Both the position numbers and the translations under genes were made by a program. From Chloroflexota bacterium (GTDB lineage Bacteria; Chloroflexota; Limnocylindria; Limnocylindrales; CSP1-4): 64,000 nucleotides of DNA. The notes beneath the pieces are model-generated. The model made no database searches. It was not told the origin of the DNA and saw nothing but the letters and a program-made list of their open reading frames with translations. Shown here piece after piece: positions 34,462 to 50,141 of the stretch. Within the stretch, counting starts at the first letter, position 1. The number at the start of each line of letters is the position of its first letter. The DNA is taken from contig JBIQKJ010000010.1 in NCBI GenBank assembly GCA_044506615.1, positions 68,440-132,439 of the forward strand, given 5' to 3'.

Positions 34462-35253
34462 TCAGCCGTCGCCCCCCGCAGCCGGCGCAGCACGACGCAC
34501 CGGTCGATGGATGAATGGGATTCGCAGGAGATCCCAGGCGACCTGGAGCGCGAGGCGCGGCCGCGCACGCATGCGGGACCCGCGCTTGTCTGCCCACTTG
34601 ATCGGCACCACGGAGATCCGGTACCCGCGTCGACGGGCGAGGTAGATCAGCTCTACGTCGAAGACGATGCTGGTGATTCGCTGCCGCGCGAAGAGGTCCT
34701 GCGCGGCCGCGTGCGTGAACCCCTTGAAGCCGCACTGGGTGTCCTTGACCGGTCCGACGACCCAGACCGACGCGAAGAGGTGGAACGCCCACCCGAGGAC
34801 CCGCCGGAAGATCGGCTGGCTCGCGCGCATGTCGGAGCCGTCCGGCTGGATGCGCGACCCGAGCGCCACATCGTGCGTCTCGAGCGCCGCCACCAAGAGG
34901 GGGAGCTGATCGGGCGGGGTCGCCATGTCGGCGTCGGCGAAGACCACCACGTCGCCGAGGGCAGCGAGCATGCCGGCGCGGACGGCCGCACCCTTGCCCC
35001 CGTGCGGCACCTCGAGGACGTCGAGCGTGACACCCGGGACCTGAGCCACGCCGTGCTCCGGGCGGGCGCGCACCAAGTTGGCCGTGCCATCGGTGCTGCC
35101 GTCGTCGACGACGAGGACTTCGACCGCTGCCGGGACGCTCCCGGAAGGAACCACCTCGCGGAGCCAGGTGAACAGCTCATCGAGGGCAGGGCCGAGCCGC
35201 TCCAGCTCGTTGTAGGCGGGCAGGACGATCGAAAGGCGCTGGACGGGAGGCAT
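34462..35253 (-). CDS. GT2, dolichyl/polyprenyl-phosphate beta-glucosyl(mannosyl)transferase-like
   Basis: LSIVLPAYNE, VLVVDDGSTDGT, HGGKGAAVRAG, FADADMATPP, TQCGFKGF. Confidence 0.85.
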   Translation of the reverse strand: MPPVQRLSIVLPAYNELERLGPALDELFTWLREVVPSGSVPAAVEVLVVDDGSTDGTANLVRARPEHGVAQVPGVTLDVLEVPHGGKGAAVRAGMLAALGDVVVFADADMATPPDQLPLLVAALETHDVALGSRIQPDGSDMRASQPIFRRVLGWAFHLFASVWVVGPVKDTQCGFKGFTHAAAQDLFARQRITSIVFDVELIYLARRRGYRISVVPIKWADKRGSRMRARPRLALQVAWDLLRIPFIHRPVRRAAPAAGGDG

Positions 35254-35314: not shown

Positions 35315-35369
35315 TAGCCGATTCGTACTGGTCTCACATCGTCGGTCCGGTGCTACCCTGCACCGCGGG
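35315..35369 (+). promoter_or_regulatory. 55-bp upstream module copy A (TAGCCnATTCGTAC ... CCGGTGCTACCCTGCACCG) with -10-like TACCCT 35354-35359
   Basis: Aligns by eye at roughly three quarters identity with 36110..36164. Lies in the divergent GT2/methyltransferase intergenic region. Confidence 0.35.
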
Positions 35370-35382
35370 CTTCACACAACCG

Positions 35383-36084
35383 ATGCCCGCCCTGGAGGAT
35401 TCCGTGCACAACCATCACCACGCGACGAGCGAGCATGCCGCCGCCGGAATCGACCTCGAAGTCGGGTCCACCGCGTGGTCGGAATGGGTCAAGGACTACT
35501 ACCGCGACATCGAGACGTATGACTGGGTCGATGTCGCCGACAACCTTCGTGGGCTCGAAGCGTTCTTCCACCGCAATCGTGCTCGGGTGGTCCGCGGCCT
35601 CGTGTCGAAGTTCGCCCCCGCAGGTGCGGCCATCCTCGACGCCGGCTGTGGAACCGGGCTGAACCTGCGCAACTTGCCCCCGACGGCCGTCGGCATCGAC
35701 ATCAACCCGCGGAACCTCGAACTGATCCGGAGCCGCCTGCCCCACCACGTCGTTGAAGGGGACATCGAGGCGATGCCGTTTCCGGACGGCTCCTTCGACA
35801 CGATCCTCTGCACCGAGGTGCTGGAGCACGTACCGGCCCCCGAGACGGCGCTGCGCGAGTTCAATCGGGTGCTTCGGCCCGGCGGGGTGCTCATCGGGTC
35901 GGTACCGGCTCGATCACTGATCTGGAAGCTGCGGTTCCTCTCGAGCACGTGCCCGCACAGTGAGCCCTTCCACAACGAGTACCTGCCCCATGAGGTCCGG
36001 GCGATGCTCGCGGGCTGGACCGTCGAACAGATCCGGTACTCGCTGCTCCACTTCAACGTGATGTTCGTCGCCCGCAAGCGGTAG
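35383..36084 (+). CDS. Class I SAM-dependent methyltransferase
   Basis: ILDAGCGTGLNL, VEGDIEAMPFPDGSFDTILCTEVLEHV, LRPGGVLI. Start is ATG 35383 or GTG 35350. Confidence 0.75.
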   Translation: MPALEDSVHNHHHATSEHAAAGIDLEVGSTAWSEWVKDYYRDIETYDWVDVADNLRGLEAFFHRNRARVVRGLVSKFAPAGAAILDAGCGTGLNLRNLPPTAVGIDINPRNLELIRSRLPHHVVEGDIEAMPFPDGSFDTILCTEVLEHVPAPETALREFNRVLRPGGVLIGSVPARSLIWKLRFLSSTCPHSEPFHNEYLPHEVRAMLAGWTVEQIRYSLLHFNVMFVARKR

Positions 36085-36109
36085 ACCGTCGCCGCGAGTA
36101 CCCCTCGCG

Positions 36110-36164
36110 TAGCCCATTCGTACCGTTCGGTGCCGCCGGGGGCCGGTGCTACGCTGCACCGGCC
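36110..36164 (+). promoter_or_regulatory. 55-bp upstream module copy B with -10-like TACGCT 36150-36155, 9 nt before GTG 36165
   Basis: Duplicate of 35315..35369. No SD precedes GTG 36165. Confidence 0.35.
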
Positions 36165-37766
36165 GTGCGTACCCCCGTCCTGCTGTATCTGCTTGCGCTC
36201 GCGGTCCGCGCGTTGCTCATCGCGCTCTACCCGGACCCCGCGTACCCCGATTCCTACTACTACGTCGACGTCGCGAGGTCCCTTGCCGCCGGTCGCGGGT
36301 TCACAGTCGACTTCGTCTGGATCTTCGCCGAGGTGGGCGGCCGCATCCCGGCCCACCCGACCCTGCCGATCCCGTCGAACGCGCATTGGATGCCATTGGC
36401 GTCAATCGTGCAGGTGCCGTTCCTTGCTCTGTTCGGCCCGGTGGCGTGGGCTTCGGCAGCGCCCTTCGCCTTGATCGGATCTGCGGCCGCGCCGCTCGCG
36501 TGGGCGATCGCGCGAGACGCGGGTGCGCGACCCTGGGTCGCCCTGGGTGCCGGCGTCCTCACCGCGATCCCCGCCATGTCGGTCGTCTACATGGTTCAGC
36601 CAGACAACTTCTCCCTCTTCCAACCCCTGGTGGCGGGCGCCCTGTGGATGACGGCTCGCGGGCTCAAGGGCTCGCCTCGATCATTCATGCTCGCCGGGCT
36701 GCTCACCGGGCTCGCCACCCTGTCGCGCAATGACGGGCTCCTGGTCGCCGCCACCCTCGGGGTTGCCGTGGCGTGGGATCGCTGGCGGGCATGGCGATCG
36801 AGAAGCATCCGGCCGCCGGCCATTCCGTGGGTCGCCGTCGTCGTCGCAGCGATCGCATTCCTCGCCGTCATGGCGCCGTGGTGGCTCCGACAGCTTTCCG
36901 TCTTCGGATCGCTGTCGCCGTCCACCGCGTCCGGAAAGGTCCTGTTCATCCGCGACATCGGCGAGTGGAACAGCATCACCACGCCAGCAACCCTCGAGCA
37001 CCTGCTCGGTATGGGTGCCGGGCCGTTGATCGCGACGCGGCTGGGCGGCCTCGTGGCGGCGGTGACGATCTACGCGACATTGGTGGGGGGCGTCATCCTC
37101 GCGCCGCTGATGCTGGTCGGGGCGTGGGCGCGCCGGCGGTCCGTCGACTTCGGCCCGTTCTTCATCTATGCGCTCCTCCTGTTCGCGTTCTCGGCACTGG
37201 TTTCGGCCGTCCACGTGCCTGGCGGGACGTTCATCCACTCCGCGGTAGCGCTCGCGCCCCACAGCTACGTCCTGGCCCTCGAGGGCATCGCCGTCGCCGT
37301 CGCCTGGATCGCTCATCGCCGGCCAACGTGGCAACCCGCACCCGCGACTCGGATCTTCACCACGGCTGCGGTGGCATTCGCCGTGTTGGTCGGCGTGGCG
37401 GGATCGGCGTTCGTTCACCAGGTCTGGGGCGAGCGTCGCGAGCGAGGACGAGCGGTGGCCGCCGCCCTGGATGCTGCCGGTGCGTCACCGTCCGACCGGG
37501 TGATGTCCATCGATGCCGCGGGTACTCGGTACTGGACGGGTCGCGGGGGTGTCGTGCTCGTGAACGATCCGCTCGAGACCGTCGCGGAGGTGGCGCGCGC
37601 CTACGACGTCGACTGGCTGGTGCTCGAGCGGGACGACACCGTCTCGGCAGCGGCCCCGGTCTTCGAGGGAGAGCGGCCCGACTGGGTCGGCCCGCCGGTC
37701 CTCGAGCGTGGGGACGATCGTGTGACGCTCGCGGTCTACCCGGTTCGACTGGATCCACAGCCATGA
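36165..37766 (+). CDS. ArnT/PMT_2-like GT-C membrane glycosyltransferase
   Basis: LYPDPAYPDSYYYVDVARSLAAGRGF after TM1, LSRNDG, about 12 TM helices plus a C-terminal soluble domain. Confidence 0.7.
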   Translation: MRTPVLLYLLALAVRALLIALYPDPAYPDSYYYVDVARSLAAGRGFTVDFVWIFAEVGGRIPAHPTLPIPSNAHWMPLASIVQVPFLALFGPVAWASAAPFALIGSAAAPLAWAIARDAGARPWVALGAGVLTAIPAMSVVYMVQPDNFSLFQPLVAGALWMTARGLKGSPRSFMLAGLLTGLATLSRNDGLLVAATLGVAVAWDRWRAWRSRSIRPPAIPWVAVVVAAIAFLAVMAPWWLRQLSVFGSLSPSTASGKVLFIRDIGEWNSITTPATLEHLLGMGAGPLIATRLGGLVAAVTIYATLVGGVILAPLMLVGAWARRRSVDFGPFFIYALLLFAFSALVSAVHVPGGTFIHSAVALAPHSYVLALEGIAVAVAWIAHRRPTWQPAPATRIFTTAAVAFAVLVGVAGSAFVHQVWGERRERGRAVAAALDAAGASPSDRVMSIDAAGTRYWTGRGGVVLVNDPLETVAEVARAYDVDWLVLERDDTVSAAAPVFEGERPDWVGPPVLERGDDRVTLAVYPVRLDPQP

Positions 37767-39397
37767 GCCGCCGTGAGGCCATCCTGACCGCGCTCGGGAT
37801 CTTCGCCGTCGCCCTCGCAGTCCGGTTCTGGTTCGCCGCGCAGATCGTCTACGCGAAGCCAGAGGACACGGCGTACTACGTCGGCGTCGCCCGGAACCTG
37901 CTGGAAGGCCGTGGGCTCATCTCGGATGCGCTGTGGAGCTACCAGACGCCGCCGCTCGAGCTCGGCCGTGATGCATTCGAAGTGTGGATGCCCCTCCCGA
38001 CGTTCCTGGCAGCGATCACGATGGCCGTCTTCGGCGTCTCCTTCACGGGGGCGCAGGTCTCATCCGTCATCGTCGGCGCGATGCTGCCCGTGCTGGCGTG
38101 GCGCCTGGCGGCCGACGTGGCGGACGATCGTCGCTTCGACGCGTGGCGTGCTCGGACGATCGCGATCGGGACAGGCCTGACCACTGCCGTCTATCTACCG
38201 GTCCTGCTGTTCTCGGCGTTGCCTGACTCGACGATGCCGTTTGCGGTGCTCGTCCTCGGTGCCTGCCTGCTCATGACCCGCATCCTCCGGGAGCCCGCTG
38301 CCCCCGCGCGGGTTGATGGCCGGGCGATCGCGCTCGGCGTTGTGCTCGGCTTGGGGGCCCTTACCCGCAACGAAACCGCCATTCTCGCCCTGATCTGGGC
38401 GGTGCTCGTATGGTTCCGGACTGGCTGGACGCTGGCGGAGCGTCTTCGCCTCATCGGGATCGTGGCCCTGGCTGCGTTCGTCGTGTTTCTCCCATGGATC
38501 GTCCGGAACCTCGTGGTCCTTGGTCACCCTTTGCCCAGCCAAGCGGCTGCGAATGCGCTCTATCTGACCGGTTTCGACGTCTTTGCATGGAACGACCCGC
38601 CAACGCTCGCCCGCTACCTCGCGCAGGGTCCGCTGCACCTCCTCGAGCTGCGTGTCGAGGGCACGGCGCACAACCTCTTCAATGTGCTCCTCTATCTCGG
38701 GCTGCCGATCTCGCTGATCGGCCTGGCGACCCTGCCCTGGCAGGGTCGCGACGCGGCTACACGGCCGCTGGTGCTGATCAGCGTGGTGCTGTTCGTGTTC
38801 ATCAGCCTCGTGTTCCCGGCCGCCACGCAGTGGGGAACATTCCTTCATGCCGCGGGACCCGCCCACGTCCTCCTGGTGCTCAGTGCATTGCTCGCTCTCG
38901 ACGCGGCGATTGCCCGGCTTGGCCAACGGCTCGGGTGGACGAACCCAGTAGCGTGGCTGGGGCCGGCCCTCGGAGTCTTCGCATCGCTGCTGTTCTCCGC
39001 GGTGCTGCTCGCAGGATTCGGCGCGAGCTCGCGCGAAACGGCGACCTATTACCAGGAGCTTGGCCGCCGCATGGCGGCAATCGGGCGGCCCCTCGACGCT
39101 TCCGCGGGACCCGTGATCTCCAACTTCCCCATTTGGGTGGCCGAGGAGTTCAGGATCCCCGCCCTCGCGCTGCCAAACGAGCCGCCCCTCGACGTCCTCG
39201 ACCTGGCCGCGTCGTTCGAGGGGACGCGGCTGTTGATCCTCAGCGATCCGGGCCATCCCCATTGGCCAGCCGACCTGGACGCCGGGGCGCCGGGCAGCGA
39301 GTGCTTCCAGGAGCTGGACCTCGGCGTGGCCCCCGACGCCACGTTGGCGACCGATCCCCTCGCGAAGACCCGCGTCTTCGTGATTGCCTGTCCATGA
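37763..39397 (+). CDS. ArnT/PMT_2-like GT-C membrane glycosyltransferase (tandem paralog)
   Basis: ATG 37763 overlaps the upstream stop (ATGA). KPEDTAYYVGVARNLLEGRGL, LTRNET, C-terminal soluble domain. Confidence 0.7.
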   Translation: MSRREAILTALGIFAVALAVRFWFAAQIVYAKPEDTAYYVGVARNLLEGRGLISDALWSYQTPPLELGRDAFEVWMPLPTFLAAITMAVFGVSFTGAQVSSVIVGAMLPVLAWRLAADVADDRRFDAWRARTIAIGTGLTTAVYLPVLLFSALPDSTMPFAVLVLGACLLMTRILREPAAPARVDGRAIALGVVLGLGALTRNETAILALIWAVLVWFRTGWTLAERLRLIGIVALAAFVVFLPWIVRNLVVLGHPLPSQAAANALYLTGFDVFAWNDPPTLARYLAQGPLHLLELRVEGTAHNLFNVLLYLGLPISLIGLATLPWQGRDAATRPLVLISVVLFVFISLVFPAATQWGTFLHAAGPAHVLLVLSALLALDAAIARLGQRLGWTNPVAWLGPALGVFASLLFSAVLLAGFGASSRETATYYQELGRRMAAIGRPLDASAGPVISNFPIWVAEEFRIPALALPNEPPLDVLDLAASFEGTRLLILSDPGHPHWPADLDAGAPGSECFQELDLGVAPDATLATDPLAKTRVFVIACP

Positions 39398-40518
39398 AAG
39401 GTCGTCCGTATACTCCAGAATCAATGGACGCCGTGCGCGCGGGCACCGAGCCGACCGACGGCCGCTTCGATGGGCTCCGGGCCGAGGCGTCCGCGGCGGT
39501 CGGATACAGCGCGAACACGCTCCGCGCCACCCGCGAGCGCTACCGGGAGGCCTACACCGACGCGCTTCGTCGCTGGCAGGGGCTCCGCGACGAGCTCGAG
39601 GCGCTCGAGCGGGCGCCGCGCGACGGGCGACCGAGGGTGGTCCCGCCGGGCGCAAGCCCCGAGGACGCCGCGACCGCCGCCGAGGCGCACGCCGACGACG
39701 AGCACCTTCGGGCGCTGCGCCACGAGGTCGAGAACCTGACTGCCGAGATCAGCGAGCGCCAGGCGCACCTCGGCAAGATCGAGCTCGCCGAGCGGACCCT
39801 CGAACGGACGTGGCTGTTCCTCGAGCAGCGCGACGCCAGCCTGCTCATGGAGGGCGGACCGACCACGGCGAGCGACTTCGCGATGCGCATCGTCGAGGCC
39901 CAGGAGGCCGAGCGGTCACGCCTCGCCCAGGAAGTCCACGACGGCCCCGCCCAGGCGCTCGCCAACGCCATCTTCCAGGTCGAGTACCTCGAGCGGATCA
40001 TCGAGTCGGATACCGCGCTCGCGCGCACCGAGCTTCGCTATCTGCGCGAGCTGCTGCGCCGCGAGCTGGGCGACGTCCGCTCGTTCATCAGCGCGCTGCG
40101 CCCACCGCTGCTCGCCGAGATCGGTCTCGACGGGTCGCTGCTCGAGGCAGTCGAGCACGCGCGGACGCTGACCGGCCTGCCGATCTCGGTGGAGCTGGGT
40201 GCGTCGAGCGACGGATTGGGGGCCGGAGCGCAGACAGTCGTCCTGCGCGTGGTACAGGAAGCACTGCAGAATGTCCGCAAGCACGCGGCCGCCACGAAGG
40301 CGTCCGTGGTGACGCGGACGGAGGGCACCGACTGGGTCGTTGAGGTGCGCGACGACGGGCGTGGGTTCGATCCGGCCGCGGTGGCCGCCCGAGGGCGGCG
40401 CAACTTCGGCCTCCAATTCATGCGCGAACGAGCCGAGCTGATCGGCGCCCGACTGGACGTACGATCTCGGACGGACGGCGGCACGGTCGTCCGACTGGCG
40501 ATCCCCGTCCCGGGCTGA
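39394..40518 (+). CDS. Soluble HisKA_3-type sensor histidine kinase (DegS-like, coiled-coil N-terminus, no TM)
   Basis: ATG 39394 overlaps the GT-C stop (ATGA); ATG 39424 is an alternative. EAERSRLAQEVHDGPAQ (H-box), QEALQNVRKHA (N-box), DDGRGF, FGLQFMRERA. Confidence 0.8.
   Translation: MKGRPYTPESMDAVRAGTEPTDGRFDGLRAEASAAVGYSANTLRATRERYREAYTDALRRWQGLRDELEALERAPRDGRPRVVPPGASPEDAATAAEAHADDEHLRALRHEVENLTAEISERQAHLGKIELAERTLERTWLFLEQRDASLLMEGGPTTASDFAMRIVEAQEAERSRLAQEVHDGPAQALANAIFQVEYLERIIESDTALARTELRYLRELLRRELGDVRSFISALRPPLLAEIGLDGSLLEAVEHARTLTGLPISVELGASSDGLGAGAQTVVLRVVQEALQNVRKHAAATKASVVTRTEGTDWVVEVRDDGRGFDPAAVAARGRRNFGLQFMRERAELIGARLDVRSRTDGGTVVRLAIPVPG
39409..39414 (+). promoter_or_regulatory. 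Candidate internal -10 box TATACT, 9 nt upstream of ATG 39424
   Basis: Same TATACT-N9-ATG geometry as at 4616-4633. Confidence 0.3.
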
Positions 40519-40539
40519 CAAGGGAGCAGAGGAGAGCGA

Positions 40540-41286
40540 ATGAGCGCAGCCGAGTACTCGGGCCCCGAGCGGCGACGGGGCGGTCCGGATCGCCGGAACC
40601 CAGGTGAGATCACGCGGATCCTCATCGTCGACGATCACGCGCTGTTCCGCGTCGGGATCGCCAACATCCTCGGCCGGGAGCCGGACTTCGAGATCGTCGG
40701 CGAGGCCGACGATTCGCGAAGCGCGATGGATCGGGCGCTCGAGACGTCGCCCGACATCATCCTCATGGACCTGTCGCTGCCCGCTCCGGGCGGCATCGAG
40801 ACCACCCAGCGGATCAAGCGCGAGCTGCCGTCGACCGCGATCGTCGTTCTTGCCGTCAGCGAGGACGAGGACGCGCTGTTCGACGCGATCAAGGCCGGCG
40901 CCGCCGCGTTCATCCTCAAGGACGTCGGCCCCGACGACCTCGTCACGATCATCCGCCGGGTCGTCTCCGGCGAGTACCTCATCAACGACAAGGTCTTCTC
41001 GAAGCCGTCGGTCGCGTCGCGGGTCCTCAAGGAGTTCCGCGAGCTCGCGGTCTACGGCCAGGAGGCCGCCCCGATCTTCGCGCCGCTGTCGCCGCGCGAG
41101 GTGGAGATCCTCGACAACATCGCCCAGGGCATGACGAACAAGCAGGTCGCCTATGCCCTCACGATCTCCGAGCAGACCGTCAAGAACCACATGAGCTCGA
41201 TCCTGCGCAAGCTCTCGGTCAACGACCGAACCCAGGCCGTCGTCTACGCGATGCGCCAGGGCTGGATCCGGATGCCCGAGGACTGA
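40540..41286 (+). CDS. NarL/LuxR (DegU-like) response regulator
   Basis: AGAGGAG SD. ILIVDDH, IILMDLSLP (phospho-Asp), VLAVSED, C-terminal HTH LSPREVEILDNIAQGMTNKQVAYALTISEQTVKNH. Confidence 0.9.
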   Translation: MSAAEYSGPERRRGGPDRRNPGEITRILIVDDHALFRVGIANILGREPDFEIVGEADDSRSAMDRALETSPDIILMDLSLPAPGGIETTQRIKRELPSTAIVVLAVSEDEDALFDAIKAGAAAFILKDVGPDDLVTIIRRVVSGEYLINDKVFSKPSVASRVLKEFRELAVYGQEAAPIFAPLSPREVEILDNIAQGMTNKQVAYALTISEQTVKNHMSSILRKLSVNDRTQAVVYAMRQGWIRMPED

Positions 41287-42512
41287 TGACCGACGCTGCC
41301 GCCGCCGAGCCGCCCGCGTCCGAGCTTCCGCTCCCGGAGCGCCTCGCGGGCGATCTCGACGCGATCGAGAAGGAGCTCGGCGAGATCGACCTGCTCGTCG
41401 AGCAGGCGACGACCGAGGCTGGCCGCCATGAGGCCCGTCGCGCCGCGGCCGCCGAGAAGGCGTCGCGCGCGGCTCGGGGCGGGACCGATCCTGCCGAGCT
41501 CAACGGCCTCTACGAGCAGCTCATGACGCTGACCAAGCGGGCGGCGCTCATGGAGTCCCAGGTCGAGGTGCTCGAGGGCAAGCGACGGGCGCTCACCCGG
41601 TATCGCGATGCCCTCGCGTCGTACGTCGACGCCGCCGGTGCCGCGCCAGCATCGCCGGCCACCGCCCGGTCGGAGCCGTCCGCGGTCGACGGCGGCGTGC
41701 TCGAAGGGGTGCCGCCGGCAGTCGCCCGTCTCCTGCTGACCACCCAGGAGGACCTGCGTCGCGACATCGCGCGCGCGATGCACGACGGGCCGGCACAGAG
41801 CCTCACGAACATCGTGCTCCAGGCCCAGATCGTCGAGCGGCTCGTCACCGCCGACCCGCAGATGGCCTCCGGCGAAGTCCGCCAGCTGATCGCGATGGTC
41901 CAGCAGACGCTCGAGGCGACGAAGTCGTTCATCTTCGACGTGCGCCCGATGGTGCTCGACGATCTCGGCCTCGTCGCGACGCTCCGGCGGGCGGCTCGTG
42001 ACCGCGGGCGGCGCGCCGGCGTCGCAGTCGAGTTCGATTCGGTCGGGGTCGACCGGCGGCTCCCGATGGAGATCGAGAGCGGCCTCTTCCGGATCCTCGA
42101 CGAGGCGCTGACCGCGTATCTCGCGCTCGGGCCCGATCGGGTGACCGTCAAGCTCGACTGGGGCGACGGGATGGAGGCGCGCGTGACCGCGATCCGAGGC
42201 GCCCCGGAGATGGCCGTCGAGGGCACGCCCGAGGAGCCGTCGACCGAGAAGACCTCCGGCCGGAAGGGCCGGGGCAAGGCAGCCGAGCTTCCGCCGGCCC
42301 TCGCCGCGATGATCGAGGAGCGCCGCGCCGATGAGCGCGATGCGGCCGAGGCCGCGCGGCTCCGGGCGCTGGTCGTCCTGCCCGCATCGACGTGGCGCGA
42401 GATCGAATCGCGTGCGCGCACGCTGGGACTCGAGGTCGAGCTGCTCGGCGAGGGCTCGGAGCTGCGCGTCGCGGTCGACCTCACCAACGGAGACCGTCCG
42501 GAGGCGGAGTGA
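41286..42512 (+). CDS. Degenerate HisKA_3 kinase-like protein (H-box retained, ATP-binding motifs lost)
   Basis: ATG 41286 overlaps the RR stop (TGATG). Coiled-coil N-terminus. RRDIARAMHDGPAQSL H-box. EALTAYLA replaces the N-box, there is no DxGxG, and a Lys/Glu-rich insert is present. Confidence 0.65.
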   Translation: MTDAAAAEPPASELPLPERLAGDLDAIEKELGEIDLLVEQATTEAGRHEARRAAAAEKASRAARGGTDPAELNGLYEQLMTLTKRAALMESQVEVLEGKRRALTRYRDALASYVDAAGAAPASPATARSEPSAVDGGVLEGVPPAVARLLLTTQEDLRRDIARAMHDGPAQSLTNIVLQAQIVERLVTADPQMASGEVRQLIAMVQQTLEATKSFIFDVRPMVLDDLGLVATLRRAARDRGRRAGVAVEFDSVGVDRRLPMEIESGLFRILDEALTAYLALGPDRVTVKLDWGDGMEARVTAIRGAPEMAVEGTPEEPSTEKTSGRKGRGKAAELPPALAAMIEERRADERDAAEAARLRALVVLPASTWREIESRARTLGLEVELLGEGSELRVAVDLTNGDRPEAE

Positions 42513-42691
42513 TCACCCTCGCTGCGATCCGTGGCCACGGCCCGGGCGCGTGCGCCGGCCAGGGCATCGTCGAGTACGGGCTGATCCTCGCGCTCACGTC
42601 GGTGCTGACGATCGTGATCCTCGTGGTCTTCGGCGGGACGCTCAGCGACGTGCTGCAGACGATCGGCGACGCGATCGACGCGGCGACGTAA
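42509..42691 (+). CDS. flp: Flp/Fap-type pilin 1
   Basis: GTG 42509 overlaps the upstream stop (GTGA) after GGAGGCGGAG. CAG/QGIVEYGLILALTSVL processing motif and hydrophobic core. Confidence 0.7.
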   Translation: MITLAAIRGHGPGACAGQGIVEYGLILALTSVLTIVILVVFGGTLSDVLQTIGDAIDAAT

Positions 42692-42707
42692 GTCGTGCCC
42701 CCGGCAA

Positions 42708-42728
42708 GGTCCCACCGCGGTTGGGACC
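42708..42728 (+). terminator. Weak hairpin after flp1 (GGTCCCA-N7-TGGGACC), no U-tract
   Basis: 7-bp perfect stem seen 17 nt after the flp1 stop. Confidence 0.3.
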
Positions 42729-42815
42729 AATAGGCTAGTGCAATCCCGGGAACGCTCGCGGATAGTTCAGACCGCCCCCGCTTGGGGGGTGAGTACTCAT
42801 CCAGGAGGCAGCCAC

Positions 42816-42986
42816 ATGGCGCTCGTCACCGCTCTCCTCGCCTCGCTTCGGCGCGACGAGGAAGGCCAGGGTCTCGCGGAGTACGCGCTGATCCTCGCCC
42901 TCATCGCGATCATCGCGATCATCGCCCTGATCTTCCTCGGTGGGCAGGTCAGCGGCATCCTGAGCAACGTCGGCAAGTCGATCTAG
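42816..42986 (+). CDS. flp: Flp/Fap-type pilin 2
   Basis: AGGAGG SD, ATG 42816. MALVTALLASLRRDEEG/QGLAEYALILALIAIIAIIALIFLGGQVSGILSNVGKSI. Confidence 0.85.
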   Translation: MALVTALLASLRRDEEGQGLAEYALILALIAIIAIIALIFLGGQVSGILSNVGKSI

Positions 42987-43006
42987 TCGACCTCGACAGC
43001 AACACC

Positions 43007-43087: not shown

Positions 43088-43116
43088 TTGACACGATCCC
43101 GAGTCGCACCTACCTT
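43088..43116 (+). promoter_or_regulatory. Sigma-70-like promoter of flp3 (TTGACA-N17-TACCTT)
   Basis: -35 at 43088-43093, 17-nt spacer, -10 at 43111-43116. About 55 nt upstream of ATG 43175. Confidence 0.5.
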
Positions 43117-43174: not shown

Positions 43175-43345
43175 ATGTCGTACATCACTGCTCTCATCGC
43201 ATCGCTTCGCTCTGAGGACGAGGGCCAGGGTCTCGCGGAGTACGCGCTGATCCTCGCGCTCATCGCCATCATCGCGATCATCGCCCTGATCTTCCTGGGC
43301 GGCCAGGTCAGCGGGATCCTGAGCAACGTCGGCAAGTCGATCTAG
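43175..43345 (+). CDS. flp: Flp/Fap-type pilin 3 (mature peptide identical to pilin 2)
   Basis: AAAGGAGG SD, ATG 43175. MSYITALIASLRSEDEG/QGLAEY... From the processing-site Gly codon to the stop it differs from flp2 only by 6 synonymous changes. Confidence 0.85.
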   Translation: MSYITALIASLRSEDEGQGLAEYALILALIAIIAIIALIFLGGQVSGILSNVGKSI

Positions 43346-43410: not shown

Positions 43411-43447
43411 CGAGGGCACGGAGGCACCGTTCCGTACCAACGGCCTA

Positions 43448-43475
43448 TTGACCCGTCACACCCGGACCCTAGTGT
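43448..43475 (+). promoter_or_regulatory. Sigma-70-like promoter of flp4 (TTGACC-N16-TAGTGT)
   Basis: -35 at 43448-43453, -10 at 43470-43475. Confidence 0.45.
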
Positions 43476-43544
43476 CACCTCATACGGCCGCATCATGTCG
43501 CACGGTGCAGGCGGTCTAGGGAATGGAAGGAGGTGATCAGCTCC

Positions 43545-43718
43545 ATGTTCCGGCGCATCCGAGCGTTCCTGGACGCAGTTACCGCTGAAGCGCGTGGCCA
43601 AGGCCTCGCCGAGTATGCTCTCATCCTCGCGCTCATCGCGATTCTTGCCATCATCGCGCTGCTCTTCCTTGGCAGCCAGATCAGCGACCGGCTCAGCGAG
43701 GTCGGCCAGGCTCTGTAG
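43545..43718 (+). CDS. flp: Flp/Fap-type pilin 4
   Basis: GGAAGGAGG SD. ATG 43545 (GTG 43533 possible). MFRRIRAFLDAVTAEARG/QGLAEYALILALIAILAIIALLFLGSQISDRLSEVGQAL. Confidence 0.8.
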   Translation: MFRRIRAFLDAVTAEARGQGLAEYALILALIAILAIIALLFLGSQISDRLSEVGQAL

Positions 43719-43734: not shown

Positions 43735-43775
43735 GACGGCCCGCCAGCCCCTCGCTGGCGGGCCGTCTTATTGTT
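43735..43775 (+). terminator. Intrinsic terminator after flp4
   Basis: 14-bp perfect stem GACGGCCCGCCAGC / GCTGGCGGGCCGTC, 5-nt loop, then TTATTGTT. Confidence 0.7.
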
Positions 43776-43921
43776 CCGCGCACCTTGCTCGCGACCTTGC
43801 GCGACGCACGAAATCCTGCCGAATCCTCCCAATGGGTCCTAGCCCATTGGTATAGTCGCGCCGCGATTCGCCGGTGCTACAGTGGTGCCACCTGTCACAC
43901 CGTCTCGGGGAGTATCCAGCC

Positions 43922-44920
43922 TTGAAGCGCTCTAATCGTTTGGTCCTGCTCATCGGGGTGTTCCTCGCGGTTATCGCGTTCGTGGGCGTCCTGGTGCTGT
44001 CCCAGCCGGACACGGGCCCAGGCCCTGACACCCCTCCTACCGAAGCTACTGTGGTCATCGCACGCGAAGACATTCCTTTGGGGACGGTCATCGACCAAGG
44101 GATGGTCGAGAACCGCCAGCTGCCGATCAACGCAGCTGAAGCGGACGCTTACAACGACGTCTCACAGGTGATCGGTCAGGTGGCCCGACAGCAGGTTGTT
44201 GCCGGCGCTCAGATCACCGGACGCACGACGTCGGGGGGCACAAGCGGCGCGATCATCGATCTCGACGTCCCCGCCGGAATGCGCGCCATGACAATCCGGG
44301 TCGATCAGGTGACGGGCGTGGGTACGCTCATCAAGGCCGGCGACTACGTGGACATGGTCGTTCGAATGAAGATCCCACCCGCGCGCCTAGTCGAGATTGA
44401 TCCCGTGTGGGATACGACTTCGAAGCTGCTGATCCAAGGCGTGCAGGTACTCGGCGTCCAGCTGCCACCTCCCGCAGTCCCAGCCGAGGGCGGAGAAGGT
44501 GAGCCCCAGCAGCAAGGAACGGGCCTCGTTGAGCAGCAGGAGCTGGTCACGGTGGGCCTGACTCCCGCCCAGGTTGAGGTCGTGAAGTGGGTCCAGAACC
44601 TCGACGTCAATCCGGCCTGGTCCTCGGCCGACCCCTCCATTTCGCTAGTTCTCCGTGCTCCCGCCGACTTCATCGATGAGAACGGCGAGCCCCGGCTCCC
44701 TGAATCTCCGTGCACGGCACTGCCGCAGCCGACAGTCGCGCCCGAGCCAGGCGCAAGTCCGGCGCCCGAAGAGCCGCCTACGTACCGAGGTTGCGAGGTC
44801 ACCGACGGCGTCATCTTGAGCACACTCATTGACGAATACGGCGTTCTGTTCCCGGCTCTCGTGGACGGCGATATCGAGCCAGACGAGTCCCCGGAGGCCA
44901 CCGAGTCGCCGGCCCCGTAG
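43922..44920 (+). CDS. cpaB: CpaB/RcpC Flp pilus assembly protein with Pro/Glu-rich C-terminal extension
   Basis: TTG 43922 (GTG 43874 possible). N-terminal TM, SAF-like VVIAREDIPLGTVIDQGMV, RcpC-like central domain, C-terminal ~100 aa rich in P/E with two Cys. Confidence 0.75.
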   Translation: MKRSNRLVLLIGVFLAVIAFVGVLVLSQPDTGPGPDTPPTEATVVIAREDIPLGTVIDQGMVENRQLPINAAEADAYNDVSQVIGQVARQQVVAGAQITGRTTSGGTSGAIIDLDVPAGMRAMTIRVDQVTGVGTLIKAGDYVDMVVRMKIPPARLVEIDPVWDTTSKLLIQGVQVLGVQLPPPAVPAEGGEGEPQQQGTGLVEQQELVTVGLTPAQVEVVKWVQNLDVNPAWSSADPSISLVLRAPADFIDENGEPRLPESPCTALPQPTVAPEPGASPAPEEPPTYRGCEVTDGVILSTLIDEYGVLFPALVDGDIEPDESPEATESPAP

Positions 44921-46317: not shown

Positions 46318-46362
46318 GCGCGACCGTAGCGTGCCCGGCGGGGCGAGAAGGGGTGTGAATCA

Positions 46363-47775: not shown

Positions 47776-47796
47776 CACGGAAGGAGCAACCGGACC

Positions 47797-48810: not shown

Positions 48811-48812
48811 CC

Positions 48813-49739: not shown

Positions 49740-49778
49740 GCGGCTGCTGGATCCCCGGGGCGTCGGCGCCCTGCTCGG

Positions 49779-50141
49779 ATGATTGCCCGCAACGTCACCC
49801 GCGGGACCGTGCTCGCCTCGGACGTCGAGGTGGCCGCGAGCCTGTGGACCAAGTTCATGGGCCTGATGGGCCGTGCCTCGCTCGCGCAGGGGGCGGCCCT
49901 CTGGCTGCCCGACTCGAACGGCATCCACATGATGTTCATGCGGTTCCCCATCGACGCGGTGTTCGTCGGCGGTCCTGGCGCGGACGGGGCGCGGCGGGTG
50001 CTGTCCGTGCATCGGTCATTGCCCGCGTGGCGCGGGATCGTGCCGCTCGTACGGGGCGCCAAGGGCGTGCTGGAGCTGCCGGTCGGGGCGATCGACGCCT
50101 CCGCGACGTCGGTCGGTGACGAGGTGGTGCTCGAGGGCTGA
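49779..50141 (+). CDS. DUF192 domain protein
   Basis: FMGLMGR ... GAALWLPDSNGIHMMFMRFPIDAVFV ... VLELPVG matches my recollection of DUF192 (COG1430). Confidence 0.65.
   Translation: MIARNVTRGTVLASDVEVAASLWTKFMGLMGRASLAQGAALWLPDSNGIHMMFMRFPIDAVFVGGPGADGARRVLSVHRSLPAWRGIVPLVRGAKGVLELPVGAIDASATSVGDEVVLEG

What the first reader, a model, noticed from the sequence alone, without database searches (positions are those of the whole stretch)
36165..42691. Unbroken translationally coupled chain from PMT/ArnT-like glycosyltransferases through a kinase module into the first Flp pilin
Several adjacent pairs in this stretch are linked by start/stop overlaps. The two ArnT/PMT_2-like genes overlap each other (ATGA 37763), and the second overlaps the soluble kinase (ATGA 39394). 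After a 21-nt gap comes the response regulator, which overlaps the degenerate kinase (TGATG 41284-41288). That kinase in turn overlaps flp1 (GTGA 42509). Actinobacterial PMT-type GT-C enzymes O-mannosylate Ser/Thr of exported proteins using polyprenyl-phosphate-mannose. A Ppm1/Alg5-like GT2 sits just upstream (34462-35253). All four predicted mature pilins end in a short hydrophilic tail with 3-4 Ser/Thr (GGQVSGILSNVGKSI, GGTLSDVLQTIGDAIDAAT, GSQISDRLSEVGQAL). A testable hypothesis follows: part of the glycan locus glycosylates Flp pili, under a shared two-component circuit. I do not know of Flp pilin glycosylation by GT-C enzymes being described.
Basis: inference. Interest (0 to 1): 0.7.

Follow-up and report, generated by a model that had tools for sequence, protein, structure and literature searches.

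The report
Glycosyltransferase pair wired to Flp pili
In an uncultured soil Chloroflexota lineage, two membrane glycosyltransferases, a cytoplasmic two-component system and the first Flp pilin gene form one conserved, tightly packed gene chain beside the Tad pilus machinery, which makes pilin glycosylation a plausible but unproven function.

Summary
All four start/stop overlaps and the 21-nt gap are at the stated coordinates. The order GT-C1, GT-C2, kinase, regulator, pseudo-kinase, flp, cpaB-tadZABC-DUF192 is present in 57 of 57 related genomes with enough flank, and the overlaps are mostly conserved.

The organism is Chloroflexota (class Limnocylindria), not an actinobacterium. The enzymes are ArnT-like GT-C proteins and are not specifically PMT-type.

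New evidence for a functional link:
- Distant homologues of GT-C1, apparently from Anaerolineae, also sit before a DegU/DegS-like pair plus flp. In one contig the homologue lies between flp and cpaB-tadABC.
- A two-box DNA element (TAGCCNATTNGTAY, about 20 nt, CGGTGCTACNNTG) lies upstream of GT-C1 and cpaB and almost nowhere else in 1.27 Mb of relatives.

Limits:
- Only flp1, a distinct pilin class, is in the chain. The multi-copy pilins have their own sigma-70-like promoters.
- Close GT-C orthologues also occur in polysaccharide loci without flp.
- The Ser/Thr tails are ordinary for Flp pilins.

I put Flp glycosylation at about 0.4 and a co-regulated envelope glycan at about 0.3. It is a new variant of a known kind and of moderately high interest.

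The parts
34462..35253 (-). GT2 glycosyltransferase, a candidate polyprenyl-phosphate sugar synthase. It is the first gene of the divergent minus-strand glycan operon.
   Evidence: Pfam Glycos_transf_2, E 1e-22. Weak NCBIfam hits to ArnC, dolichyl-P-hexose transferase and EpsD, all below their cut-offs. An orthologue lies within 5 kb upstream of GT-C1 in about 20 of 57 relatives.
35315..35360 (+). Copy 1 of the two-box element: Box1 TAGCCGATTCGTAC at 35315-35328 and Box2 CGGTGCTACCCTG at 35348-35360. It lies upstream of the methyltransferase.
   Evidence: About 63 nt here are duplicated upstream of GT-C1, with the same spacing.
35350..36084 (+). SAM-dependent methyltransferase. The GTG at 35350 lies inside Box2, so the real start is probably the ATG at 35383.
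   Evidence: Pfam Methyltransf_11, E 2.5e-26. An orthologue is present upstream of GT-C1 in only 8 relatives.
36110..36156 (+). Copy 2 of the two-box element: Box1 at 36110-36123 and Box2 at 36144-36156. It ends 9 nt before the GT-C1 start codon.
   Evidence: In relatives Box1 sits at a fixed -54 to -58 from the GT-C1 start, in 24/57 loci at up to 1 mismatch and 38/57 at up to 2 mismatches.
36165..37766 (+). GT-C1, an ArnT-like GT-C glycosyltransferase of 533 aa with about 10 hydrophobic segments and a C-terminal soluble domain.
   Evidence: Pfam PMT_2, 38.4 bits. AlphaFold2 model with pLDDT 79.6 and pTM 0.83. The best Foldseek match is ArnT 5F15, TM 0.53. The first-loop motif AYPDSxYYVD is conserved. 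Hydropathy.
37763..39397 (+). GT-C2, a paralogue of GT-C1 (29% identity), 544 aa. Its start overlaps the GT-C1 stop codon.
   Evidence: Pfam PMT_2, 26.4 bits against a cut-off of 26.1. BLASTP against GT-C1 gives E 2e-22. The motif PEDTAYYVGVA is conserved. The 4-nt overlap is conserved in 45/62 relatives.
39394..40518 (+). HK1, a soluble DegS-like histidine kinase (HisKA_3 plus HATPase_c, no transmembrane segment). Its start overlaps the GT-C2 stop codon.
   Evidence: Pfam, NCBIfam and hydropathy maximum 0.96. The overlap is conserved in 38/64 relatives.
40540..41286 (+). NarL/DegU-type response regulator (REC plus GerE).
   Evidence: Pfam. NCBIfam NarL at 7.9e-48, below that model's cut-off. 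Median identity across relatives is 90%.
41286..42512 (+). HK2, a soluble pseudo-kinase. It has a coiled coil, a HisKA_3 domain that keeps the His (MHDGPAQSL) and a CA-like fold without recognisable ATP-binding boxes.
   Evidence: Pfam HisKA_3 only. Alignment A1. AlphaFold2 model that matches the DesK cytoplasmic core. No transmembrane segment.
42509..42691 (+). flp1, a class A Flp pilin (mature QGIVEYGL...AIDAAT). Its GTG start overlaps the HK2 stop codon.
   Evidence: Class A is the pilin next to HK2 in most relatives. None of 57 class A genes has a sigma-70-like promoter pattern upstream.
42724..42737 (-). Box1-like site in reverse orientation, upstream of flp2.
   Evidence: 1 mismatch. In relatives, 14 reverse-strand Box1-like sites lie in the flp region, 12 of them upstream of an flp gene and most about 140 nt before the cleavage-site Gly.
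42816..42986 (+). flp2, a class B (multi-copy) Flp pilin with mature tail GGQVSGILSNVGKSI.
   Evidence: AGGAGG ribosome-binding site.
43088..43116 (+). Sigma-70-like promoter pattern TTGACA-17-TACCTT upstream of flp3.
   Evidence: It is one of only 2 such plus-strand matches in the 64-kb window. In relatives, 79 of 186 class B/C flp genes carry the pattern upstream.
43175..43345 (+). flp3, a class B Flp pilin whose mature part is identical to that of flp2.
   Evidence: A 196-nt direct repeat with flp2 is 85% identical.
43434..43475 (+). A reverse Box1-like site (43434-43447, matched on the minus strand) directly next to a sigma-70-like pattern TTGACC-16-TAGTGT (43448-43475, plus strand), upstream of flp4.
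43533..43718 (+). flp4, a Flp pilin resembling class C, with tail GSQISDRLSEVGQAL. The likely start is the ATG at 43545.
43735..43767 (+). Strong intrinsic-terminator-like hairpin (14 pairs, 12 G-C) followed by a T-rich tail. It lies between the pilin genes and cpaB.
   Evidence: I9.
43840..43884 (+). Copy 3 of the two-box element: Box1 at 43840-43853 and Box2 at 43872-43884, upstream of or at the annotated cpaB start.
   Evidence: Box1 is present upstream of cpaB in 55/63 relatives at up to 1 mismatch and 61/63 at up to 2 mismatches. The region is conserved at the DNA level in relatives, including third codon positions.
43874..44920 (+). cpaB/rcpC. The start is uncertain, because the first codons of this ORF are probably non-coding leader sequence.
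   Evidence: Pfam RcpC plus SAF. DNA-level conservation across the putative start.
45070..50141 (+). tadZ (with a genuine REC domain) at 45070-46317, tadA at 46363-47775, tadB at 47797-48810, tadC at 48813-49739 and a DUF192 gene at 49779-50141.
   Evidence: Pfam. All are syntenic in the relatives.

Best explanation
The two GT-C genes are not just the edge of the neighbouring glycan locus. They belong to a conserved Chloroflexota Tad/Flp pilus module.

Proposed transcription units (inferred):
- One transcript probably starts at the two-box element just upstream of GT-C1. It carries GT-C1, GT-C2, the soluble DegS-like kinase HK1, the NarL/DegU-type regulator, the pseudo-kinase HK2 and the class A pilin flp1. 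Stop/start overlaps keep their synthesis coupled.
- The multi-copy pilins (flp2-4) have their own sigma-70-like promoters and end at a strong terminator.
- The cpaB-tadZABC-DUF192 machinery operon carries the same two-box element as GT-C1. I infer that both operons answer to one regulator, most simply the encoded response regulator.

Proposed mechanism (inferred, not shown): GT-C1 and GT-C2 are paralogues that both keep the first-loop acidic motif, and they may act as a heterodimer. They would use a polyprenyl-phosphate sugar, made by a GT2 such as 34462-35253 and flipped outward. They would O-glycosylate the exposed C-terminal helix face of Flp pilins (conserved Ser29, Ser33 and Ser38 in class B) while the pilins wait in the membrane, before TadA-driven assembly.
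For: Shown here:
- The junctions and reading frames are correct.
- The full gene order holds in 57/57 Limnocylindria genome loci. The gene upstream of GT-C1 varies (at least 9 neighbour types), so the conserved block begins at GT-C1.
- The 4-nt overlaps are conserved.
- There is no strong terminator before 43735.
- Box1 TAGCCNATTNGTAY at up to 1 mismatch gives 85 hits in 1.27 Mb of relatives. All lie upstream of cpaB (55 hits), upstream of GT-C1 (24 hits, at a fixed -55) or in the flp region (6 hits). In the window there are 5 hits against 0.05 expected. Box2 occurs exactly 3 times in the window, each about 33 nt after a Box1.
- Cross-class recurrence: of 32 metagenome loci anchored on distant GT-C1-like proteins with at least 4 kb downstream, 16 carry a regulator plus DegS-like kinase and 11 carry an flp downstream. 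Closest named relatives are Anaerolineae or Chloroflexota. Independent gene calls give GT-C, regulator, DegS kinase, Flp, TadE.
- L157 reads flp-flp-GT-C-cpaB-tadA-tadB-tadC-DUF192 with no two-component system and no other glycan gene nearby.
- L156 reads GT-C, GT-C-like, regulator, kinase, tadZ, tadA, tadB/C.
- GT-C1 has a GT-C fold closest to ArnT. Both paralogues keep conserved first-loop Asp/Glu residues.
- The Flp C-terminal tail lies outside the membrane, and Ser29, Ser33 and Ser38 are 83-92% conserved in class B.

Precedent:
- TfpW is a GT-C enzyme encoded next to pilA that glycosylates a type IVa pilin (bioRxiv 10.1101/2020.04.19.049825).
- Aggregatibacter Flp1 is reported as glycosylated (PMC6182317).
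Against: - There is no biochemical evidence of any kind.
- Orthologues 64% identical to the flp-linked Anaerolineae GT-C sit in a classical polysaccharide locus (GT87, PMT_2, Bac_transf, Wzx-like, GT2) with no two-component system or flp within 9 kb. About half of the remote loci show no link.
- In Anaerolineae the GT-C is the last gene of a larger GT-C/GT87 cluster, which is its more constant partner.
- Within Limnocylindria general synteny is high. The unrelated ComF-like and HPF genes are also conserved downstream (28/45 loci immediately after DUF192), so gene order alone is weak evidence.
- Ser/Thr in Flp tails is a family-wide trait (own knowledge). The Caulobacter Tad pilus shows no extra density (PMC10710030).
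- The fold does not indicate the acceptor. ArnT acts on lipid A and the Aft enzymes act on arabinan.
- Only flp1, not the presumed major pilins, is in the chain.
Confidence: 0.4

Rival explanations
1. Co-regulated envelope glycan. The GT-C pair works with the neighbouring GT87, PMT_2, GT2 and LPG_synthase_TM-type genes. Together they build or decorate a cell-envelope polysaccharide or lipoglycan. This could be the layer the pilus must cross, or an adhesive polymer. The DegS/DegU-like system switches this glycan on together with Tad pili as one surface-adhesion programme. Pilins themselves are not modified.
For: - The GT-C lies at the end of a GT-C/GT87/GT2/methyltransferase/LPG_synthase_TM cluster in Anaerolineae.
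- A close orthologue sits inside a polysaccharide locus with Bac_transf and a Wzx-like flippase and without flp.
- In Limnocylindria the immediate upstream neighbour of GT-C1 is a GT87 or GT2 gene in 27/55 loci.
- The window is rich in GT87 and PMT_2 genes.
- The best structural match, ArnT, has a lipid acceptor.
Against: - In Limnocylindria the glycan genes upstream vary, while the GT-C pair stays fixed to the kinase, regulator and flp genes with overlapping codons.
- In L157 the GT-C sits alone inside a tad operon with no other glycan gene nearby.
- Box1 and Box2 link GT-C1 to cpaB. At up to 1 mismatch the only other Box1 match in the window is one site inside a gene at 12346.
Confidence: 0.3
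2. Membrane input for the soluble kinases. HK1 and HK2 have no sensor or membrane domain. The GT-C proteins are made in fixed ratio with HK1 through the overlapping stop/start codons. They would act as the membrane-embedded sensing partner. For example, they could report lipid-linked sugar flux or the pilin load in the membrane, in the way transporters report to intramembrane-sensing kinases. Their enzymatic product would be secondary.
For: - HK1 and HK2 lack any hydrophobic segment.
- The GT-C2/HK1 4-nt overlap is conserved in 38/64 loci.
- In Anaerolineae the regulator and DegS-like kinase directly follow the GT-C, 160-1960 nt after its end.
Against: - L157 and L101 keep the GT-C with flp but have no two-component system.
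- Catalytic-type acidic residues are conserved in both paralogues, which argues for enzymatic activity.
- I know of no precedent for a GT-C protein acting as a kinase co-sensor (own knowledge).
Confidence: 0.1
3. Inherited neighbourhood without a shared function. The GT-C pair and the two-component/flp genes are adjacent through common descent and compact genomes. Overlapping stop/start codons are common in high-GC operons and need not imply a shared pathway.
For: - Unrelated housekeeping genes (ComF-like, HPF) are also syntenic downstream in most relatives.
- All 80 genome loci come from one class.
Against: - The association recurs in at least four different architectures across lineages whose TadA is only about 60% identical to the window's.
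- A specific cis-element is shared by the GT-C1 and cpaB leaders.
- Conservation stops exactly at the GT-C1 start.
Confidence: 0.1

Closest known systems
TfpW of Pseudomonas aeruginosa Pa5196/PA7, a GT-C arabinosyltransferase for type IVa pilin
   Same: It is a polytopic GT-C enzyme with an outward-facing catalytic Asp motif. It is encoded next to the pilin gene, uses a polyprenyl-phosphate sugar and modifies Ser/Thr of the pilin outside the cytoplasm (bioRxiv 10.1101/2020.04.19.049825).
   Different: TfpW acts on a large type IVa pilin with a globular head and has C-terminal TPR repeats. The window has two ArnT-like paralogues without TPR domains, next to 40-aa Flp pilins, joined to a two-component system, in monoderm-type Chloroflexota. 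Sequence relatedness to TfpW was not tested.
ArnT (GT83), undecaprenyl-phosphate-L-Ara4N:lipid A transferase
   Same: It is the best structural match of the GT-C1 model (5F15/5EZM, TM 0.52-0.53). It belongs to the same Pfam PMT_2 family, is of similar size, and the model has a comparable transmembrane core followed by a C-terminal soluble domain.
   Different: Identity is only 14-15%. These organisms are not known to make lipid A (own knowledge), and the gene context here is pili rather than polymyxin-resistance genes.
Protein O-mannosyltransferases (PMT, GT39; yeast Pmt1-Pmt2 heterodimer, actinobacterial Pmt)
   Same: They are GT-C enzymes that transfer mannose from polyprenyl/dolichyl-phosphate-mannose to Ser/Thr of exported proteins. 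The yeast enzymes work as paralogue heterodimers, which parallels the coupled GT-C1/GT-C2 pair.
   Different: The PMT Pfam model is below threshold (16.8 bits against 22.7). PMT structures rank well below ArnT, the oligosaccharyltransferases and the Aft enzymes. No MIR domain was detected.
DegS-DegU of Bacillus subtilis
   Same: A cytoplasmic HisKA_3 kinase with an N-terminal coiled coil, paired with a LuxR/GerE-type regulator that controls surface behaviour. The Anaerolineae counterparts hit the Pfam DegS domain.
   Different: The window's HK1 does not hit the DegS domain model. Limnocylindria add a second, conserved pseudo-kinase (HK2). The targets are unknown.
Canonical tad/flp loci (Aggregatibacter, Caulobacter, Chloroflexales rcpC-tadZABC/tadEEG/flp)
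   Same: flp pilins with the G/XXXXEY motif, cpaB/rcpC, tadZ, tadA, tadB and tadC are present in the usual order. Tad pili are already reported in Chloroflexota (PMC7332563; bioRxiv 10.1101/2025.08.19.671072).
   Different: No secretin, tadV, or tadE/F/G gene was found in the window. The locus has three pilin classes, a tadZ with a genuine REC domain, a terminal DUF192 gene, and the GT-C pair plus two-component system at its head. These last features are not mentioned in the papers I read.

Membership tests
GT-C glycosyltransferases, Pfam PMT_2 (ArnT/PMT-like) | Match to PF13231 at or above the gathering score | tested here: met
   GT-C1 scores 38.4 bits and GT-C2 26.4 bits against a cut-off of 26.1. 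GT-C2 is borderline but is a clear paralogue of GT-C1 (E 2e-22).
GT-C glycosyltransferases, Pfam PMT_2 (ArnT/PMT-like) | Polytopic GT-C fold, with a transmembrane core followed by an extracytoplasmic C-terminal domain | tested here: met
   GT-C1 AlphaFold2 model has pTM 0.83. All 33 best Foldseek PDB matches are GT-C enzymes or GT-C-containing complexes (ArnT, STT3/AglB/PglB, AftA/AftB/AftD, DPY19, ALG3/ALG9, PMTs, a GPI-transamidase complex and EmbA/EmbB). There are 10-12 hydrophobic segments. GT-C2 was not modelled.
GT-C glycosyltransferases, Pfam PMT_2 (ArnT/PMT-like) | Conserved acidic residue(s) in the first extracytoplasmic loop | tested here: met
   In GT-C1 (AYPDSxYYVD), D29 is conserved in 32/36 sequences and D35 in 36/36. 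In GT-C2 the PEDTAYY motif is conserved across relatives. The side of the membrane on which the loop lies is inferred from the family, not measured.
GT-C glycosyltransferases, Pfam PMT_2 (ArnT/PMT-like) | Use of a polyprenyl-phosphate-linked sugar donor | not testable with these tools
   There is only context. A GT2 lies nearby, and GT2 plus LPG_synthase_TM genes sit in the Anaerolineae clusters.
Protein O-mannosyltransferase (PMT, GT39) | Match to PF02366 (PMT) above the gathering score | tested here: not met
   GT-C1 scores 16.8 bits against 22.7, and GT-C2 has no hit. PMT structures rank 19th and lower in the fold search.
Flp/Fap pilins | Match to PF04964 | tested here: inconclusive
   Scores are 24-27 bits (E 3e-5 to 3e-6), below the 32.2-bit gathering score. 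An Anaerolineae counterpart carries a precomputed Flp_Fap hit.
Flp/Fap pilins | Short prepilin with the G/XXXXEY processing motif, followed by a hydrophobic helix of about 20 aa, encoded next to tad genes | tested here: met
   The motifs are G/QGIVEY and G/QGLAEY, each with a single hydrophobic segment. The genes lie directly upstream of cpaB-tadZABC.
Tad pilus machinery | CpaB/RcpC, TadZ, TadA (T2SSE ATPase), TadB and TadC (T2SSF) | tested here: met
   Pfam RcpC plus SAF, REC plus AAA_31/ParA, T2SSE, and T2SSF twice.
Tad pilus machinery | Prepilin peptidase TadV and pseudopilins TadE/TadF in the locus | tested here: not met
   None of the window proteins I scanned carries Peptidase_A24 or TadE. 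These genes may lie elsewhere in the genome. Anaerolineae loci have tadE-tadE-tadG after flp.
NarL/DegU-type two-component system | HisKA_3 plus HATPase_c kinase paired with a REC plus GerE regulator | tested here: met
   HK1 and the regulator. HK1 has no transmembrane segment.
NarL/DegU-type two-component system | DegS N-terminal domain (PF05384) | tested here: inconclusive
   The domain is not detected in the window's HK1 or HK2. It is detected in the Anaerolineae kinases at the same position.
Histidine kinase (applied to HK2) | Catalytic ATP-binding domain with N, G1 and G2 boxes | tested here: not met
   There is no HATPase_c hit. The alignment shows no Asn box or Gly boxes. The fold still resembles the DesK DHp plus CA core, so HK2 is a pseudo-kinase that keeps the phospho-acceptor His.
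Pilin O-glycosylation systems (TfpW; PilO/TfpO/PglL) | Glycosyltransferase or oligosaccharyltransferase gene adjacent to the pilin gene | tested here: met
   In the window it is adjacent through the kinase module. In L157 it is directly adjacent (flp-flp-GT-C).
Pilin O-glycosylation systems (TfpW; PilO/TfpO/PglL) | Wzy_C/O-antigen-ligase domain (PilO/PglL type) | tested here: not met
   Neither GT-C protein has a Wzy_C hit in Pfam.
Pilin O-glycosylation systems (TfpW; PilO/TfpO/PglL) | Demonstrated glycan on the pilin | not testable with these tools
   This needs mass spectrometry of pili.

The most novel reading that the evidence does not exclude
A pilin-glycosylation circuit spread across Chloroflexota. 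A heterodimer of two ArnT-like GT-C enzymes O-glycosylates Flp pilins in the membrane. A membrane-less DegS-like kinase and a pseudo-kinase are made in fixed ratio with the enzymes and with a dedicated class A pilin. They read the enzymes' activity or the pilin load, as a form of flux sensing. The signal feeds back through the NarL-type regulator, which binds the shared Box1 operator upstream of the GT-C operon, some pilin genes and the cpaB-tad machinery operon.
Probability: 0.12. Interest if true: 0.85.

Novelty: new variant of a known kind. Interest (0 to 1): 0.62.

Why it matters
Tad/Flp pili are among the most widespread adhesion organelles. Yet no enzyme is known that glycosylates their tiny pilins, and the best-resolved Tad pilus is unmodified.

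A conserved GT-C pair placed at the head of the tad locus in two classes of abundant, mostly uncultured soil and sediment Chloroflexota gives a concrete candidate system to test. It comes with a candidate regulator and a candidate operator sequence.

If the pilins are glycosylated, GT-C-type protein glycosylation would extend to the smallest known pilins, which could help explain phage evasion or surface properties in these lineages. If an envelope glycan is the product instead, the locus still shows how pili and envelope glycans are co-regulated in monoderm-type Chloroflexota, whose envelopes are poorly understood.

Tried and rejected
- Sequence searches of both GT-C proteins against PDB chains found nothing at E up to 1. 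I needed a structure model and a fold search instead.
- NCBIfam gave no informative name for GT-C1 or GT-C2.
- A 22-sequence alignment of distant GT-C homologues was too diverse for the locus scan. A 10-sequence subset worked.
- The built-in sigma-70 scan found no promoter in 34000-45200. A looser TTGACN-16-18-TANNNT pattern found only the two sites before flp3 and flp4.
- Rfam found no known RNA family in 34500-45500.
- I considered reading Box1 upstream of cpaB as a hairpin or palindrome (CCAATGGG...CCCATTGG in the window). The left arm is not conserved in relatives, so I rejected this.
- I considered Box1 plus Box2 as ordinary -35 and -10 elements. The spacing of about 25 nt between the TTGGTA-like and TAnnnT-like hexamers does not fit sigma-70, so I left this open.
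- The Ser/Thr tail argument does not discriminate. The Ser positions are conserved, but such residues are common in Flp pilins generally.
- The Box1/Box2 element was not found in the Anaerolineae loci, so it cannot be used as cross-class evidence.

Full report

The window is about 69% G+C. A GC3 frame plot and a simple GC3-based gene caller give one clear reading frame per gene across 35350-50141, all on the plus strand.

- ATGA at 37763.
- ATGA at 39394.
- A 21-nt gap at 40519-40539 before the ATG at 40540.
- TGATG at 41284-41288.
- GTGA at 42509.

The GTG at 42509 is the last in-frame start before the G/QGIVEY processing motif. The upstream part of that ORF lies in the wrong GC3 frame, so flp1 does begin inside the HK2 stop codon.

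Pfam confirms the domain assignments:
- PMT_2 on both large membrane proteins: 38.4 bits, and a borderline 26.4 bits, against a cut-off of 26.1.
- HisKA_3 plus HATPase_c on HK1.
- REC plus GerE on the regulator.
- HisKA_3 alone on HK2.
- Flp_Fap on the small ORFs, at E 1e-5 to 1e-6, below the gathering score.

Neither kinase has a hydrophobic segment. The terminator scan reports one weak 5-pair hairpin at 38779 inside 36165-42691, at a rate no higher than chance. The one strong terminator-like hairpin (14 pairs) is at 43735-43767, after the last pilin gene.

**2. Whose genome is it?**

The closest HK2 homologues that carry a name are labelled Candidatus Limnocylindrales, with one labelled Solirubrobacterales. 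The 80 genome loci recovered with an HK2 alignment are almost all MAGs labelled Limnocylindria, Limnocylindrales, Chloroflexota, or 'uncultured Chloroflexia'. Limnocylindria is a class of Chloroflexota. This matters for the PMT analogy.

**3. Is the arrangement conserved?**

I compared the window's proteins by tblastn against the 80 loci.
- All 57 loci with at least 5.4 kb upstream of HK2 carry GT-C1, GT-C2, HK1 and the regulator in the same order and strand. They are followed by flp genes, cpaB, tadZ, tadA, tadB, tadC and a DUF192 gene.
- An independent gene call and clustering gave the same pattern.
- Median identities are 66% for GT-C1, 60% for GT-C2, 60% for HK1, 90% for the regulator, 56% for HK2 and 91% for TadA.
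- The 4-nt overlaps are also conserved: GT-C1/GT-C2 in 45/62 loci, GT-C2/HK1 in 38/64, HK1/regulator in 61/78 (the window's 21-nt gap is the exception), and HK2/flp1 in 25/68 (gap of 30 nt or less in 47/68). Outliers in that count are mostly artefacts of taking the best HSP.

The conserved block starts exactly at GT-C1. The gene immediately upstream varies: GT87 on the minus strand in 17/55 loci, GT2 on the minus strand in 7/55, and at least seven other types.

There is a caveat. Downstream of DUF192, the unrelated ComF-like and HPF genes are also syntenic in most relatives. Conserved order within this class is therefore not strong evidence on its own.

**4. What are the parts?**

GT-C1 and GT-C2:
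- They are paralogues (29% identity, E 2e-22). They are unrelated at the BLAST level to a third PMT_2 protein at 56739-58367.
- The AlphaFold2 model of GT-C1 (pLDDT 79.6, pTM 0.83) matches ArnT best (TM 0.52-0.53). Next come STT3/AglB/PglB, AftD/AftA and DPY19. PMTs rank lower. The proteins are thus ArnT-like GT-C enzymes, and the fold does not identify the acceptor.
- Both paralogues keep an acidic first-loop motif across relatives: AYPDSxYYVD in GT-C1 and PEDTAYY in GT-C2. Both are therefore probably active, and a heterodimer is conceivable. Both points are inference.

HK2:
- It is conserved at about 60-75% identity among the listed homologues and keeps the phospho-acceptor His (MHDGPAQSL).
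- It lacks the N and G boxes.
- Its model still resembles the DesK DHp plus CA core. It is a pseudo-kinase, perhaps a phosphatase or a partner of HK1.

Pilins fall into three conserved classes:
- Class A always lies next to HK2 and ends in ...AIDAATGG. The window's flp1 belongs here.
- Class B is multi-copy: QGLAEYALILALIAIVAIIALIFLGGQVSxILSTVGxSV. flp2 and flp3 belong here.
- Class C has a longer tail. flp4 resembles it.

**5. Transcription units**

The pattern TTGACN-16-18-TANNNT occurs only twice on the plus strand of the whole window, directly before flp3 and flp4. In the relatives, 79 of 186 class B/C flp genes have it upstream, and 0 of 57 class A genes do. The loci hold 89 plus-strand matches in total.

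The presumed major pilins therefore have their own promoters. Only the class A pilin flp1 depends on the kinase operon. This qualifies the 'unbroken chain into the pilins': the chain is real, but it ends in a special pilin.

**6. A shared cis-element (new)**

A repeat search showed that about 63 nt upstream of the methyltransferase gene is duplicated upstream of GT-C1.

In the window:
- The core, Box1 TAGCCNATTNGTAY, has 5 matches at up to 1 mismatch, against 0.05 expected. They lie before the methyltransferase (35315), before GT-C1 (36110), before cpaB (43840), in reverse orientation between flp1 and flp2 (42724), and once inside a gene at 12346.
- Box2, CGGTGCTACNNTG, occurs exactly three times, each about 33 nt after a forward Box1.

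In the 1.27 Mb of Limnocylindria loci:
- All 85 Box1 matches at up to 1 mismatch lie upstream of cpaB (55 of 63 loci), upstream of GT-C1 (24 of 57 loci, at a fixed -54 to -58), or in the flp region (6).
- At up to 2 mismatches the counts are 61 forward-strand matches before cpaB, 38 before GT-C1, 14 in the flp region, and 16 elsewhere. All 14 flp-region matches are on the reverse strand, and most sit about 140 nt before the cleavage-site Gly.

The leaders are conserved at the DNA level, including positions that my ORF calls had treated as the first codons of cpaB and the methyltransferase. Those starts are therefore probably further downstream.

The element has no Rfam match and is not found in the Anaerolineae loci.

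I read Box1 as an operator and Box2 as an extended -10-like box or leader. The simplest candidate binder is the encoded NarL-type regulator. This is inference. What is shown is that the GT-C operon and the tad machinery operon share a highly specific upstream sequence.

**7. Beyond the class**

An exhaustive phmmer search with GT-C1 found 1610 cluster representatives. I used a subset that is about 30-35% identical to GT-C1 (alignment A3) to fetch 80 metagenome loci. A further search with the GT-C of one of these loci, L112, returned mostly unnamed homologues; the few that carry a name are Anaerolineae or Chloroflexota.

Of 32 such loci with at least 4 kb downstream, 16 carry a regulator 41-51% identical to the window's, plus a DegS-like kinase on the same strand. 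Eleven carry a recognisable flp after them.

Examples:
- L082 reads GT-C/GT87 genes, GT-C, a weakly GT-C2-like protein, regulator, DegS-type kinase, flp, tadE, tadE, tadG.
- L163/L164, with independent gene calls, read PMT_2, GT2, methyltransferase, PMT_2, GT87, LPG_synthase_TM, GT-C, regulator, DegS kinase, Flp, TadE.
- L156 reads GT-C, GT-C-like, regulator, kinase, tadZ, tadA, tadB/C.
- L157 reads flp, flp, GT-C, cpaB-like, tadA, tadB, tadC, DUF192, comF-like. It has no two-component system and no other glycan gene nearby.

In a rough neighbour-joining tree, the linked loci are scattered through the GT-C1-like clade. This is the strongest argument that the link is functional.

The strongest counter-example is L161/L162. 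There, a GT-C 64% identical to the flp-linked GT-C of L112 sits in a polysaccharide locus (GT87, PMT_2, Bac_transf, Wzx-like, GT2) with no flp or two-component system within 9 kb. More generally, in Anaerolineae the upstream GT-C/GT87 cluster is the more constant partner of the GT-C.

**8. The pilin tails**

The quoted tails are correct. In 115 distinct class B pilins, Ser29, Ser33 and Ser38 are 92%, 87% and 83% conserved. They alternate with hydrophobic positions, so they would line one face of a helix.

This is compatible with O-glycosylation. It fits equally with small polar residues needed for helix packing.

From my own knowledge, S/T-rich tails are a general Flp trait. The 3.4 Å Caulobacter Tad pilus map shows no density for modification (PMC10710030). 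I therefore give this argument little weight.

**9. Comparison with what is known**

- Tad pili are known in Chloroflexota (PMC7332563; bioRxiv 10.1101/2025.08.19.671072). Those papers mention neither glycosylation nor a GT-C or DegS/DegU link.
- Aggregatibacter Flp1 is described as glycosylated (PMC6182317). I know of no responsible enzyme being identified (own knowledge).
- TfpW of P. aeruginosa is a GT-C enzyme encoded next to pilA that arabinosylates a type IVa pilin (bioRxiv 10.1101/2020.04.19.049825). It is the closest mechanistic precedent.
- My literature searches found no description of a GT-C enzyme tied to Flp pilins.

**10. Verdict**

A functional link between this GT-C subfamily, a DegS/DegU-like system and Flp/Tad pili is likely; I estimate about 0.8 for some functional link. 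The specific claim that the enzymes glycosylate Flp pilins is the best single hypothesis (about 0.4) but is untested. A co-regulated envelope glycan is nearly as good (about 0.3).

It is a new variant of a known kind, namely pilin-linked GT-C glycosylation and Tad regulation by a two-component system. It comes with a concrete and testable set of parts.

**Limits of my analysis**
- Gene calls and junction distances come from my own scripts.
- The remote loci are not phylogenetically independent.
- Their taxonomy is inferred from the names of homologues.
- The survey was anchored on HK2 or on the GT-C, not on tad genes.

Noticed in passing
window 35315-35360, 36110-36156, 43840-43884 (reverse Box1-like sites at 42724-42737 and 43434-43447): A two-box DNA element (Box1 TAGCCNATTNGTAY, about 20 nt, Box2 CGGTGCTACNNTG) lies upstream of the methyltransferase, GT-C1 and cpaB. 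In 80 related loci, essentially every Box1 match falls upstream of cpaB, upstream of GT-C1 or in the flp region. It has no Rfam match. It may be an operator plus promoter for the locus.
   Followed up: partly
window 50488-51441: An IS1595-family transposase (NCBIfam 184 bits), followed by an HTH gene at 51959-52654 on the minus strand, sits between DUF192 and the ComF-like gene. No relative has the transposase at this position, where ComF-like usually follows DUF192 directly. It is therefore probably a recent insertion.
   Followed up: partly
window 42509-43718 and loci L001-L080: There are three conserved Flp pilin classes per locus: class A next to the pseudo-kinase, a multi-copy class B with near-identical copies, and a longer-tailed class C. 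Copy number ranges from 0 to 6 per locus. flp2 and flp3 lie within a 196-nt direct repeat that is 85% identical.
   Followed up: partly
window 49779-50141: A DUF192 (COG1430) gene is the conserved last gene of the tad operon in about 50 Limnocylindria loci and also in the distant locus L157. Its role in Tad pili is unknown to me.
   Followed up: no
window 45070-46317: TadZ here has a full-scoring receiver domain (Response_reg, E 1.6e-28) fused to the ParA/MinD-like ATPase. It could be a second target of the kinases encoded upstream.
   Followed up: no
window 41286-42512: HK2 is a well conserved pseudo-kinase. It keeps the phospho-acceptor His and a DesK-like fold but has no ATP-binding motifs, and it contains a conserved ELPPALAAM...RRAD segment of unknown role. 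Anaerolineae loci have only one complete kinase, of DegS type.
   Followed up: partly
window 43874 and 35350: The first in-frame start codons of cpaB and the methyltransferase fall inside the DNA-conserved Box2 leader. The real starts are probably further downstream (for example ATG 35383 for the methyltransferase).
   Followed up: partly
window 54300-55184 (-), 56739-58367 (+), 60302-61537 (-), 31276-34450 (-): The window holds many more extracytoplasmic glycosylation genes: three GT87 (PimE-like) genes, a third unrelated PMT_2 GT-C, and an LPG_synthase_TM protein. The same set of families precedes the GT-C, regulator, kinase and flp genes in Anaerolineae (L163).
   Followed up: partly
window 28942-31218 (-): A 758-aa protein combines an MFS transporter domain with a spermidine/spermine synthase-like domain. 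It sits at the end of the minus-strand glycan operon.
   Followed up: no
window 12040-15735 (+): LuxE-like acyl-protein synthetase and LuxC-like acyl-CoA reductase genes lie next to an AMP-binding enzyme and a short-chain dehydrogenase. This looks like a possible fatty aldehyde or alcohol module beside the sugar-modification genes.
   Followed up: no
loci L082 (13700-15400) and L163 (13556-16852): In Anaerolineae the flp gene is followed by very large TadE-domain proteins of 566 and 1098 aa, the 566-aa one carrying a CarboxypepD_reg-like domain. These could be adhesin-like minor pilins and alternative acceptors for the GT-C enzymes.
   Followed up: no
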